A stretch of DNA of 64,000 nt from Escherichia coli. GTDB taxonomy: Bacteria > Pseudomonadota > Gammaproteobacteria > Enterobacterales > Enterobacteriaceae. How positions within the stretch are numbered: position 1 is the first letter of the stretch; each line of letters starts with the position of its first letter. The translations under genes were made by a program, and so were the position numbers. The notes beneath the pieces are model-generated. The model worked only from the letters and a program-made list of their open reading frames with translations. It searched no databases and was not told where the DNA came from. The DNA lies in assembly GCF_003334385.1 (NCBI RefSeq), contig NZ_QOWN01000001.1; one strand, given 5' to 3'. Of this stretch, positions 60,180-62,594 are shown piece after piece.

Positions 60180-61756
60180 GTTTATGGGTTTGGGATGAAA
60201 CGGGAAAACCAACAAGAAAAACATGGGATCCTCAGACTGAAGACTGGTCAGAGGACAGCAAGGCCGGTGGAGCCGATAATGTTTTTAAATCACGTTTGCC
60301 AAGACCAATGCGAATTAGATCACTGGATGATGCAGCGACTACAGAAGAGACATTGCTCACTCTTGCGTTGACTCCCTTAGTGAAAGAGTTGAAGGCTCTG
60401 GAGTGTAATAAAGAGTCACAAATATCAAAAGTTAAAGCAGCTTTGGTTAAAGCTGTAAATGAGATCGCTGAACCTCATCAAGAACGATTTTCTTCTATTT
60501 CTCGACAAATTCAGACAGGGTTTCAACATGTCTTTCCTGCTCTTGGTGTTCAGCTCAGTGTTGAAATGAATCCACCTGAGCTTAAAATAGACAATTTATT
60601 AAAGCAGGGGTCTGGTTTATTAGTCAAAGAGGCTGCGGGAAACTCTCGCATTGGGCAACAGGGGACAGGAGCAAGACGAGCTCTTTTTTGGGCAATGCTC
60701 CAGGTTCATAATGAAATTAGCCGACAAAATGAAAAGCGAGAAGCTCTTCTTAAATCCTTTAGAGAACAACTTAAAAAAGAGGTGAGGAAAAATGTAAAAA
60801 GTGAAAATATAAATCTTCTGAAACAACAAATAGATGCTATTGAAAATGGCGCCCCTGTTCCTGAAGATACAGACGATCCAGCCTTGCCCGGATATATTCT
60901 TTTAATGGATGAGCCAGAAAATGCGTTACACCCAATGGCTGCCAGAGCGGCGCAAGCGCATCTTTATGAACTTGGTAAACATCCAGATTGGCAGGTGCTA
61001 TTAACAACTCATTCACCATACTTTATAAACCCTCTTGAGGATCATACTACGATTGCTCGTATGCAACGTTCAACAGATGGGAAATCACTTTCTCCACGCT
61101 TGTATGTGGCTGATGAAGCTAACTTCTCACCTGATGAGAAAGATAATTTACAGGCACTACAACTTACAGATATTGGTTTTGCTGAAATATTTTTTGGGAG
61201 TTATCCAATTATTGTTGAAGGTGATACTGAACATGCGGCATTTATTTCAGCAATCACTAAAGAAAAACATGAGATGTCAGGTAAGGTAAGTATTGTCAGA
61301 GCCAGAGGTAAGGCGGTTCTGGTTCCTTTGATAAAGATGTTAAATCATTTTAAAGCAGATTTTGGGATTGTACATGATATTGATTGGCCTTATCGTAGAG
61401 ATGGTTCGAATAATGGTTCATGGACGCTTAATACGATCATTAGAAATGAGATTATAAAATGCAGGAATAATGGGAAAAAAGTATATCATCGTTGGAGTGC
61501 CCCCGATTTTGAGCGTTTTTTAGGTGGTGAGGAGTTGGGGAAAGATAAACCCTATACAGCATTTAATCGAATTTCGCGCGATGAAAAATTAAAAGAAAAG
61601 ATTCAAAATCTTATAATTAATTTGTTTGAAGGGGAGTGTTATGATCCTGATGACTTTGAACCCGATGATGATTTTAATGCTCAACTCATGGAACAATTAA
61701 AAATATGGGCAAAAAATAATGGTGAAAGTGATAATGTTCGCGTTATGGGATGCTGA
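60180..61756 (+). pseudogene. OLD-family ATPase/TOPRIM nuclease gene, 5'-truncated at the IS629 boundary
   Basis: Frame is open from the IS629 right end; contains Walker B (LLMDEPENALHP), H-loop (LLTTHSPYF) and TOPRIM motifs (IIVEGDTEHAAF, VHDIDWPY) but no Walker A / P-loop. Confidence 0.7.
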
Positions 61757-61940
61757 TTATAACATTGGTTAATGGCTGGGTTTCATATAAATGACTTTGC
61801 ATAACTAATTCGTTTTTGCTGTTTTTATATAAAGCCTTTAGGACGTTGTGGAAGGGGAAGTGTTGCAATTTATTCAGTGAGATAGTTTGTTTGTAGGGTA
61901 TTTAAACGCATTTTGGTGATCATTTGTTGTTCAGGATAGT

Positions 61941-62594
61941 GTGGCGAATATGAATGGTAAATATAATGTCAGGAGTGAATTGTTAGCTCGTTGTATCGGA
62001 ACAGGTAGATTGAAAGGAGATGTGGTAAGTGATTTTATTGGGTTTAATGGTAGCAAACAGATAGGTTATGTTTTATTAACTTTATTTTTAATAAAAGTAA
62101 TAAATCCTGATTTGCTCTCTCATTATCGTATATTTAATCGTTTTTTGCGTTATGAGAGAAAAGTTATGGATATATATAATTCTTTGAGTGATATAGAAGT
62201 TGATTGTATTTGCCGGGAAGTGATGGCTATATATGAACATACTCAGCGATGCTGCAACGAAAAGAAAATTACAACTGTCCAGTTAGGCAGGAAACTTAAT
62301 GGCAGGTATGCAGATATGATTGCTGAGTTAAAAGAAACAGCAGAGATGAGGGGGGAGGGGGTAATTTCTTTTGAGATGGATATATTGAATTCTTTTAATG
62401 ATGCGAATGAATATCACGGACGTGTTAAACTGGAATTGGATATACCTGCTTCAGATATATTATATTGCCATGATTTTATTGATTCAGAACATGTAAACTC
62501 CTGGCTGGTTGAACCACATGAGTGGGTGGTTATTAATCGTTCTCTTACTGGGATTGTTACAGTGCCAGTATCAGCAATAAAAATCTCTTATTGA
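61941..62594 (+). CDS. Hypothetical protein (AT-rich, no recognisable domain)
   Basis: 217-aa ORF (GTG at 61941 or ATG at 61950) downstream of the OLD-like remnant, same strand. Confidence 0.45.
   Translation: MANMNGKYNVRSELLARCIGTGRLKGDVVSDFIGFNGSKQIGYVLLTLFLIKVINPDLLSHYRIFNRFLRYERKVMDIYNSLSDIEVDCICREVMAIYEHTQRCCNEKKITTVQLGRKLNGRYADMIAELKETAEMRGEGVISFEMDILNSFNDANEYHGRVKLELDIPASDILYCHDFIDSEHVNSWLVEPHEWVVINRSLTGIVTVPVSAIKISY

What the first reader, a model, noticed from the sequence alone, without database searches (positions are those of the whole stretch)
60180..62594. Decapitated OLD-family nuclease gene with an unknown downstream partner: remnant of a defence module
The ORF beginning at the IS629 boundary has the Walker B, H-loop and TOPRIM signatures of OLD-family (overcoming lysogenisation defect) ATPase-nucleases but no Walker A, so its ATP-binding N-terminus has been lost. 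OLD-family proteins are the effectors of several anti-phage systems, including Gabija-type systems where the partner is a UvrD-like helicase. Here the same-strand downstream gene is a 217-aa protein with no recognisable domain, not a helicase, so the original system may have been an uncharacterised OLD-containing two-gene variant, now probably inactive.
Basis: partly seen in the sequence, partly recalled or inferred. Interest (0 to 1): 0.6.

Follow-up and report, generated by a model that had tools for sequence, protein, structure and literature searches.

The report
IS-truncated stand-alone OLD nuclease, unrelated neighbour
An insertion sequence has cut the ATP-binding head off a single-gene OLD-type anti-phage nuclease in an E. 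coli pathogenicity island, and the small gene after it is not its partner but an independent orphan gene that probably encodes an ADP-ribosyltransferase-like protein.

Summary
At window 60180 an IS629-like element (58870-60179) abuts codon 102 of an OLD-family gene. The remnant (60180-61756) keeps Walker B, the H-loop and the TOPRIM acidic motifs. It has lost the Walker A motif (GPNNSGKT, residues 33-40 of the intact 626-aa protein found in 24 E. coli genomes).

The interpretation does not hold. Orthologues (42-80% identity) in 41 other loci, about 40 species, never have a relative of the 217-aa protein within about 4 kb. Their neighbours vary, and in Morganella/Enterobacter the gene is a lone moron in a P2-like prophage. 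This is a Class 1 (single-gene) OLD, not a Gabija-like pair.

The 217-aa gene occurs without OLD in 331 of 464 E. coli genomes that carry it, after a Kiwa system in Serratia, and as about 300-aa relatives on plasmids. The OLD gene is a discrete 2.05-kb indel between a T6SS VasL remnant and this gene.

The 217-aa protein belongs to an uncharacterised family of 231 clusters. Its predicted fold, a conserved R-S-E pattern and weak Pfam DRAT links suggest a DraT-like ADP-ribosyltransferase; this is probable, not proven. Overall the finding is an ordinary pseudogene plus a mildly interesting orphan gene.

The parts
58870..60179 (+). IS629-like IS3-family insertion sequence (1310 bp): terminal inverted repeats 58870-58910 and 60139-60179, orfA 58924-59250, orfB 59250-60137, ALIL frameshift pseudoknot 59205-59321. 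Its right end is the breakpoint that removed the OLD 5' end.
   Evidence: RefSeq annotates it as an IS3 family transposase with programmed frameshift. There are thousands of 95-98% identical copies on enterobacterial plasmids.
60180..61756 (+). Remnant of a Class 1 OLD-family ATPase-nuclease gene: codons 102-626 plus the stop. Walker A and the first 101 codons are lost. Retained motifs are Walker B at 60893-60919, H-loop at 61004-61018, and TOPRIM acidic motifs at 61208-61231 and 61373-61390. The longest startable ORF is 60296/60308-61756 (486/482 aa).
   Evidence: Against the intact allele there are 7 nonsynonymous and 19 synonymous differences and no frameshift or stop.
61757..61949 (+). 193-nt spacer between the OLD stop and the next gene. 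It contains the right-hand copy (about 61789-61814, AAATGACTTTGCATAACTAATTCGTT) of a roughly 25-30-nt imperfect direct repeat. The left copy lies in the VasL 3' end of genomes with intact OLD. Homology to OLD-less genomes resumes at about 61795-61802.
61941..62594 (+). Independent orphan gene, 217 aa from GTG 61941 or 214 aa from ATG 61950 as in RefSeq. It is a member of an uncharacterised family with a predicted DraT-like ADP-ribosyltransferase fold. The candidate R-S-E residues are R117, S151 and E191/E194 in 217-aa numbering. It is not a partner of OLD.
62730..63962 (+). ibrA (PAPS-reductase-like), the first gene of the ibrA-ibrB-perC block. It is context only: a third independent module, present in 2103 E. 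coli genomes against 464 for the 217-aa gene.

Best explanation
Three independent modules lie side by side in an ExPEC pathogenicity island.

(1) Window 60180-61756 is the 3' five-sixths of a Class 1, single-gene OLD-family defence gene. The intact 626-aa protein would be an ABC-type ATPase, with a dimerisation insert, fused to a TOPRIM nuclease. By analogy with P2 Old, Thermus scotoductus OLD and Vibrio cholerae Vc OLD, it would act alone, with ATP binding and hydrolysis licensing TOPRIM cleavage of nucleic acid during phage infection. An IS629-like element, followed by IS-mediated rearrangement of the left flank, removed the promoter, the start codon and codons 1-101 including Walker A. The copy in the window is therefore a recent pseudogene, fixed in one lineage of alleles (109 complete genomes).

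(2) Window 61941/61950-62594 is a separate gene that needs no OLD. It encodes a short member of a roughly 300-aa orphan family that most likely has an R-S-E type, DraT-like mono-ADP-ribosyltransferase fold. By inference it would bind NAD+ and ADP-ribosylate an unknown macromolecular target.

(3) ibrA and ibrB follow as a third module.

Shown: the truncation, the orthology, the lack of co-occurrence, the indel structure, and the family's conservation. Inferred: that the intact OLD defends against phage, that the remnant is inactive, and that the 217-aa protein is an active ART.
For: Truncation and lost Walker A:
-.

OLD identity:
- PADLOC 'Old' at E=1e-49 for the fragment and 1.2e-67 for the intact protein, well ahead of the GajA, AriA and retron models.
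- Pfam OLD-like_TOPRIM, AAA_15 and AAA_21.
- The only PDB sequence hit is the Class 1 TsOLD, 6P74 (its Class 1 status comes from PMC10568477 and PMC7049728).

Stand-alone nature:
- Orthologues at 77-78% identity sit alone between tail-fibre-assembly and tail genes of a P2-like prophage in Morganella/Enterobacter. In Rahnella, Klebsiella and Rhizobium the downstream genes are on the opposite strand.
- Across 42 orthologue loci there is no common downstream family, no helicase and no 217-aa relative.
- No retron-like RNA is found.

Independent modules in E. coli:
- The OLD 3' part is in 133 genomes: 24 intact and 109 with the IS junction.
- The 217-aa gene is in 464 genomes and ibrA in 2103.
- The 2053-bp OLD cassette is a clean indel flanked by a short imperfect direct repeat.

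The 217-aa gene outside E. coli:
- In Serratia it follows HTH_35-KwaA-KwaB downstream of T6SS VasL.
- In a Tn7-like element it lies between an HsdR-like helicase and hsdM/S.
- Relatives sit on plasmids and among housekeeping genes.

ART reading:
- AF2 model with pLDDT 82 and pTM 0.83.
- Foldseek against AFDB50 hits DRAT-annotated proteins at E 2e-11 and 3e-10, with TM 0.72-0.74.
- R117, S151, E191 and E194 are at least 90% conserved in 55 diverse members.
- 2 of 55 members match Pfam DRAT, best E 6.3e-7.

Need for the ATPase site in Class 1 OLDs:
- PMC10568477 (P2 Old Walker A lysine) and PMC12392090 (Vc OLD).
Against: - In E. coli every OLD copy (133 of 133) lies directly upstream of the 217-aa gene. 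Both are AT-rich (38.6% and 34.3% GC, against 50.5% for ibrA). A local functional or historical link in E. coli is therefore not excluded.
- The direction of the indel is unresolved. The OLD-bearing state keeps the VasL C-terminus that better matches Serratia VasL, which would fit secondary loss of OLD in the 331 genomes.
- The remnant shows no decay beyond the truncation, and RefSeq annotates it as a normal 482-aa CDS. For E. coli YbjD a Walker A mutant kept its phenotypes (PMC13261556), so complete inactivity is inferred, not shown.
- The E. coli and Serratia proteins lack the otherwise conserved R58 and P60 and a roughly 80-aa C-terminal extension.
Confidence: 0.8

Rival explanations
1. OLD and the 217-aa protein formed a two-gene defence system, a Gabija-like variant with a non-helicase partner (possibly an ART-like sensor or effector), now disabled by the IS.
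For: They share a strand and are adjacent in all 133 OLD-bearing E. coli genomes. Both are AT-rich and unlike the neighbouring ibrAB. The 217-aa family also turns up beside other defence genes, namely Kiwa and type I R-M.
Against: None of 41 non-E. coli orthologue loci has a family member within about 4 kb. In E. coli, 331 of 464 genomes keep the 217-aa gene without OLD. The OLD cassette is a separable 2.05-kb indel. The intergenic spacer is 193 nt. Family members are mostly lone genes in unrelated contexts. The OLD scores best against the single-gene 'Old' model.
Confidence: 0.05
2. The truncated OLD is not dead. An N-terminally shortened 482-486-aa protein, carrying the dimerisation insert, the C-terminal ATPase lobe and TOPRIM, is expressed by read-through or an outward promoter from the IS. 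It retains a nuclease or dominant-negative function, which would explain why it persists intact in 109 genomes.
For: A 1.45-kb ORF remains with all TOPRIM acidic residues, and no frameshift or stop has accumulated. RefSeq calls it a normal CDS. For YbjD a Walker A mutant retained its phenotypes (PMC13261556).
Against: The truncation removes far more than the P-loop: at least 101 and effectively about 144 residues of the ABC core, so the ATPase domain cannot fold normally. ATPase-site residues are required in P2 Old and Vc OLD (PMC10568477, PMC12392090), and in YbjD the ATPase domain is essential (PMC13261556). The 109 copies are at least 99% identical, so lack of decay is explained by recency. 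The promoter scan showed nothing above chance.
Confidence: 0.08
3. The 217-aa gene is a degenerate or non-enzymatic relic: a truncated member of the roughly 300-aa family, or simply not an ART at all. In that case it has no current function in E. coli.
For: It is shorter than nearly all relatives and lacks the conserved R58 and P60. dN/dS of 0.34 is much more relaxed than ibrA at 0.05. Similarity to solved ARTs is weak.
Against: The ORF is intact in 463 genomes in two alleles about 8% apart, with dN/dS below 1. The Serratia homologue ends at the same point. The candidate catalytic R, S and E residues are all retained. The model is confident over the core.
Confidence: 0.2

Closest known systems
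Class 1 OLD family nucleases (P2 Old; Thermus scotoductus OLD, PDB 6P74; Vibrio cholerae Vc OLD; E. coli YbjD/OldB)
   Same: The architecture matches: an N-terminal ABC ATPase (Walker A, Walker B, H-loop) with an insert, plus a C-terminal TOPRIM with conserved acidic motifs. The gene stands alone and is carried on prophages and islands. The best PADLOC model is 'Old', and the only PDB sequence match is TsOLD.
   Different: It is only distantly related to P2 Old itself: tblastn of the intact protein against 50,697 phage records returned only Rhizobium and Vibrio phage hits. At 626 aa it is longer than TsOLD (528 aa). This orthologue group has no experimental data. The window copy lacks residues 1-101, so it cannot be a functional member.
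Gabija (GajA Class 2 OLD plus GajB UvrD-like helicase)
   Same: GajA profiles match the ATPase C-lobe and TOPRIM at E of 1e-19 to 1e-23. A same-strand downstream gene exists.
   Different: The downstream gene is not a helicase and hits no PADLOC model. No helicase lies next to any of 42 orthologues. The 'Old' model scores far better than any GajA model.
DraT (dinitrogenase reductase ADP-ribosyltransferase, Pfam PF07357) and other R-S-E clade mono-ARTs (C3, VIP2, Tre1)
   Same: For the 217-aa protein, the predicted fold and helix/strand order resemble C3-like ARTs. Conserved Arg, Ser and Glu residues sit on the expected strands. AFDB proteins annotated DRAT are structural matches, and 2 of 55 family members hit Pfam DRAT.
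   Different: The query itself has no significant sequence match. No DraG, macro or ARH partner gene is nearby. The acidic motif reads E-x-x-E-W rather than the classical E/Q-x-E. There is no nitrogenase context and the target is unknown.

Membership tests
OLD family, Class 1 (single-gene) | N-terminal ABC-type ATPase with Walker A (P-loop) | tested here: not met
   This applies to the window copy. Residues 1-101, including GPNNSGKT, are absent. The feature is met in the intact allele L001:7698-9575, where G33, N35, N36, G38, K39 and T41 are invariant in 16 orthologues.
OLD family, Class 1 (single-gene) | Walker B, H-loop and C-terminal TOPRIM domain with conserved acidic residues | tested here: met
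   YILLMDEPE, TTHSP, IIVEGDTE and HDIDWP are present in the window and invariant among orthologues. Pfam OLD-like_TOPRIM matches at 5e-8. PADLOC Old matches at 1e-49. TsOLD 6P74 aligns over residues 342-508.
OLD family, Class 1 (single-gene) | Occurs as a lone gene, with no conserved UvrD-like helicase, retron RT/ncRNA or AriB-type partner | tested here: met
   In 42 orthologue loci the downstream genes are heterogeneous or on the opposite strand, and none is a helicase. Rfam finds no retron-like RNA in 57500-64000. The class definition comes from PMC10568477.
OLD family, Class 1 (single-gene) | ATP-dependent nuclease activity and anti-phage phenotype | not testable with these tools
   This needs expression of the intact allele and phage challenge. 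No experimental data were found for this orthologue group.
Gabija (Class 2 OLD plus GajB) | [quoted passage not shown] | tested here: not met
   The downstream 217-aa protein has no helicase or PADLOC hit. Its predicted fold is ART-like.
   Only 1 of 42 orthologue loci has a family member. In E. coli, 331 of 464 genomes carry the 217-aa gene without OLD.
R-S-E clade mono-ADP-ribosyltransferases (DraT-like) | ART fold | tested here: inconclusive
R-S-E clade mono-ADP-ribosyltransferases (DraT-like) | Conserved catalytic Arg, Ser (STS-like) and Glu (ExE-like) residues | tested here: inconclusive
   Conservation is R117 in 54/55, S151 in 50/55, E191 in 53/55 and E194 in 52/55 members. The residues lie on predicted strands. 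Their structural equivalence to the catalytic residues of known ARTs was not verified residue by residue, and the motif is E-x-x-E.
R-S-E clade mono-ADP-ribosyltransferases (DraT-like) | Sequence-profile membership (Pfam DRAT PF07357) | tested here: not met
   The query has no Pfam hit even at E<=10. Only 2 of 55 family members reach E<=0.001. The link is therefore remote and transitive, not membership.
R-S-E clade mono-ADP-ribosyltransferases (DraT-like) | NAD+ binding and ADP-ribosyl transfer | not testable with these tools
   This requires a biochemical assay.

The most novel reading that the evidence does not exclude
The 217-aa gene represents an undescribed family of stand-alone, DraT-like ADP-ribosyltransferases: 231 clusters at 50% identity, typically about 300 aa. 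The family is carried on islands, plasmids and transposons, often beside defence genes (OLD, Kiwa, type I R-M), with no cognate hydrolase or immunity gene. In this reading it acts as a new single-gene conflict effector (defence, anti-defence or toxin) with an unknown target. A much less likely extension, at about 5%, is that in E. coli it cooperates with the neighbouring OLD.
Probability: 0.25. Interest if true: 0.5.

Novelty: new member of a known kind. Interest (0 to 1): 0.25.

Why it matters
The main result is a correction. A hypothesised new two-gene OLD system turns out to be an IS-inactivated Class 1 OLD next to an unrelated gene, so this pair is not worth pursuing as a system.

Two modest positives remain:
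- The intact allele (626 aa, WP_225526271.1-type) belongs to a widespread, well-conserved group of single-gene OLDs found from Enterobacterales to Rhizobiales and Legionella, including P2-like prophage morons. Few Class 1 OLDs have been tested for defence (PMC10568477, PMC12392090), so this group is a reasonable candidate.
- The 217-aa protein gives an entry point to an unannotated DraT-like ART-fold family that recurs on mobile elements.

The locus also shows that the site downstream of a T6SS VasL gene is occupied by different defence cargo: OLD in E. coli and Kiwa in Serratia.

Tried and rejected
- **Paralogy within the ibr block.** I compared the 217-aa protein with the second 214-aa hypothetical gene after perC. 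They are not related (E 0.15).
- **Gabija, retron or PARIS membership of the OLD.** Rejected. 'Old' is by far the best PADLOC model, the retron Eco8 NCBIfam model scores 25.7 bits against a cutoff of 250, and there is no helicase, RT or ncRNA.
- **Close relationship to P2 Old.** tblastn against phage records found only distant Rhizobium and Vibrio phage hits.
- **Promoter and terminator scan of 60100-62800.** Nothing above shuffled expectation.
- **Profile search of the 217-aa family against PDB sequences.** No hit at E<=10.
- **NCBIfam scan of 10 distant family members.** No relevant hit.
- **Word-indexed protein search with the 55-sequence alignment.** It added nothing and did not reach bona fide DraT sequences, so no hhalign test against a DraT alignment could be run.
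- **Literature search for ibrA/ibrB.** It returned only retinal-barrier papers.
- **The 217-aa gene as part of the ibrAB operon.** Rejected as obligatory. ibrA is in 2103 genomes against 464 for the 217-aa gene, and the Serratia homologue has no ibrAB.
- **Direction of the OLD indel (insertion or deletion).** The flanking repeat and the VasL C-terminus comparison did not settle it.
- **Correction of my own estimate.** An early figure of about 600 OLD-less genomes was wrong. The direct count is 331.
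Full report

Yes. Window 58870-60179 is a 1310-bp IS3-family element. It has 41-nt imperfect terminal inverted repeats, orfA and orfB, and the ALIL frameshift pseudoknot. Its size and its TGAACCGCCCCGGG ends fit IS629. That name rests on my recollection; RefSeq says only 'IS3 family'.

Immediately after the right inverted repeat the + strand reads SLWVWDETGKPT.... This is collinear, with no gap, frameshift or stop, with residues 102-626 of an intact 626-aa 'ATP-dependent nuclease' in E. 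coli S1-NGR-02-A (L001:7698-9575).

The intact protein carries Walker A (GPNNSGKT, residues 33-40). The window copy does not. It retains these motifs, all invariant in 16 orthologues:
- Walker B, YILLMDEPE
- H-loop, TTHSP
- TOPRIM, IIVEGDTE and HDIDWP

The family assignment is solid:
- PADLOC 'Old' matches at E=1e-49 for the fragment, over profile positions 139-523 of 578, and at 1.2e-67 for the intact protein.
- Pfam finds OLD-like_TOPRIM, AAA_15 and AAA_21.
- The only PDB sequence match is Thermus scotoductus OLD, 6P74.

The first in-frame start codons are at 60296 and 60308, so any product would lack about 144 residues. The missing 5' part is not elsewhere in the window.

**2. Population picture in E. 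coli**

Among 5426 complete genomes:

| Feature | Genomes |
|---|---|
| OLD 3' part present | 133 |
| of these, intact 5' end (95-99% identical to the window) | 24 |
| of these, at least 99% identical and sharing the IS junction | 109 |
| 217-aa gene present | 464 |
| 217-aa gene without any OLD | 331 |
| ibrA present | 2103 |

The sequence left of the IS differs between genomes. In CFT073 it is a truncated AAA protein at tRNA-Phe. In the window and in strain ST69 it is an IS256 remnant and ireA. The 5' end was therefore lost through IS-mediated rearrangement, not a simple insertion.

Against the intact allele the remnant has 7 nonsynonymous and 19 synonymous changes. The truncation is recent and has not been followed by decay.

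**3. Is the 217-aa gene the OLD partner?**

No. Four lines of evidence point the same way.

(a) In OLD-less E. coli the order is VasL remnant, 214-aa gene, ibrA, ibrB, perC. Alignment shows that the OLD gene with short flanks (L001:7571-9623, 2053 bp) is a clean indel. It is bounded by an imperfect direct repeat of about 25-30 nt from the VasL 3' end.

(b) Close orthologues are lone genes:
- In Morganella/Enterobacter (78% identity) the gene sits alone between the tail-fibre assembly gene and the tail genes of a P2-like prophage.
- In Rahnella, Klebsiella and Rhizobium the next gene is on the opposite strand.

(c) A scan of one genome per species returned 37 further full-length orthologue loci at 36-77% identity. 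An HMM of the 217-aa family found a member in only 1 of 42 loci, the E. coli one, even at E<=10. Clustering of flanking ORFs showed no universal neighbour and no helicase.

(d) The 217-aa family turns up in unrelated places:
- In Serratia marcescens it follows HTH_35-KwaA-KwaB (Kiwa) downstream of an intact T6SS VasL.
- In a Tn7-like element it lies between an HsdR-like helicase and hsdM/S.
- It occurs on Agrobacterium, Pseudomonas, Enterobacter, Cronobacter and Aliarcobacter plasmids.
- It occurs between housekeeping genes.

By the definition used in the field, a single gene with no UvrD-like helicase and no retron (PMC10568477, PMC7049728), this is a Class 1 OLD.

**4. How the OLD most likely worked (inferred)**

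Known Class 1 OLDs act alone:
- P2 Old is activated during lambda infection and severs tRNA anticodon stems in an ATP-hydrolysis-dependent way (PMC12445682).
- Vc OLD nicks DNA and blocks ICP1 replication, and requires both ATPase and nuclease residues (PMC12392090).
- TsOLD is a dimer through an insert in the ABC ATPase (PMC7049728).

The intact E. coli protein has all of these parts, so it is probably an ATP-gated TOPRIM nuclease that defends on its own. Its substrate cannot be inferred. The window copy lacks the P-loop and much of the ABC core, as well as its promoter and start, so it is most likely a pseudogene.

One caveat applies. For E. coli YbjD a Walker A point mutant retained its phenotypes, although the ATPase domain was essential (PMC13261556). 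Residual activity of a 482-aa fragment is therefore unlikely but untested.

**5. What is the 217-aa gene?**

It is a real gene:
- It is intact in 463 genomes as two alleles about 8% apart.
- Its dN/dS is 0.34, against 0.05-0.07 for ibrA.
- It has a 64%-identical Serratia homologue.

A profile search of 1.84 billion representatives found 231 clusters, mostly 270-340 aa. No Pfam, PADLOC, NCBIfam or PHROG model matches the query.

The structural and sequence evidence for an ART fold is as follows:
- The AlphaFold2 model is confident (pLDDT 82, pTM 0.83), though built from 6 sequences.
- Foldseek against AFDB50 matches proteins annotated as DRAT at E 2e-11 and 3e-10, with TM 0.72-0.74, and also phage Mu-F/ART fusion proteins.
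- Foldseek against PDB is not significant, with Tre1 first at E 0.14.
- In 55 diverse members, R117 (54/55), S151 (50/55), E191 (53/55) and E194 (52/55) are conserved on predicted strands, which is an R-S-E pattern.
- Only 2 of 55 members hit Pfam DRAT, best E 6.3e-7.

I read it as a probable DraT-like ART-fold protein, at about 0.6-0.65. No neighbouring hydrolase or immunity gene was seen. The E. coli and Serratia forms are short and lack the family's R58 and P60, so a degenerate or non-enzymatic role remains possible.

**6. Residual link between the two genes**

Three observations keep a link open:
- In E. coli every OLD copy sits upstream of the 217-aa gene.
- Both are AT-rich, at 38.6% and 34.3% GC, against 50.5% for ibrA.
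- The OLD-bearing state preserves the VasL C-terminus that better matches Serratia VasL.

OLD could therefore have been lost secondarily from the 331 genomes. That would make the two genes co-travellers in one island segment. It would not make them a system, given the absence of co-occurrence elsewhere. I put a functional pairing at about 5%.

**7. Verdict**

It is a decapitated OLD defence gene, but not part of a two-gene system. It is a new, untested member of a known kind (Class 1 OLD), present here as a pseudogene, next to an orphan gene of a probable ART-like family. Interest is low to modest.

Noticed in passing
L027, L034, L036, L039, L042, L056, L058, L060 (downstream of OLD, 16-365 nt, same strand); L032 (upstream): In 9 of 42 OLD-orthologue loci, all of the 36-52%-identity clade, a protein of about 760 aa lies next to OLD. 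It has a restriction-endonuclease-like N-terminus and a P-loop. It matches the PADLOC candidate single-gene system PDC-S73 (E=1.7e-40). The recurrence and same-strand spacing could mean a two-gene arrangement in that clade, or just defence-island clustering.
   Followed up: partly
L015:124-4880, L023:5972-9885 and 5 further loci: A Metallophos (SbcD-like) plus AAA_27/SMC-like (SbcC-like) gene pair flanks OLD orthologues in 5-7 of 42 loci, mostly Alphaproteobacteria. It is another recurrent neighbour.
   Followed up: no
L004:4182-8714 (Serratia marcescens MJAO01000028): Directly downstream of an intact T6SS ImpA_N/VasL gene lie an HTH_35 gene, KwaA and KwaB (a Kiwa defence system), and then the 237-aa homologue of the 217-aa protein. 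In E. coli the equivalent slot holds OLD or nothing. The VasL-downstream site therefore behaves like a variable defence-cargo slot.
   Followed up: partly
L008-L010:5001-6881 (Morganella/Enterobacter): A 78%-identical OLD orthologue is a lone moron between the tail-fibre assembly gene (Caudo_TAP) and the GpU/tape-measure tail genes of a P2-like prophage. This shows the orthologue group is phage-borne, like P2 old, but at a different position.
   Followed up: partly
beyond the window end; L017:15798-16443 and L018:23798-24443: In the window's lineage (CFT073, ST69), ibrB, the gene after ibrA, is annotated as frameshifted. The ibrAB module next to the finding may therefore also be inactive there.
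   Followed up: no
window 57870-58652 (-) and 55482-57530 (+): An IS256-family transposase remnant (frameshifted in RefSeq) lies immediately left of the IS629-like element, next to the siderophore receptor gene ireA. In CFT073 the same IS/OLD junction instead has a truncated AAA-domain gene beside tRNA-Phe on its left. This indicates IS-mediated shuffling of the segment between islands.
   Followed up: partly
window 61941-62594; alignment A3 positions 58 and 60: The E. coli and Serratia members of the ART-like family have lost an otherwise near-invariant R-x-P motif (R in 53/55 and P in 50/55 members). They also lack the roughly 80-residue C-terminal extension of typical members. The candidate catalytic R, S and E residues are kept.
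   Followed up: partly
L001:2623-5844 and L002:4545-6290: Upstream of the VasL remnant, the OLD-intact and OLD-less E. coli islands carry a GIY-YIG nuclease family gene (L001 only) and a 581-aa '3'-5' exonuclease' gene, among decayed T6SS genes (ImpA_N, VasL and POTRA fragments). These are possibly further defence-type cargo.
   Followed up: no
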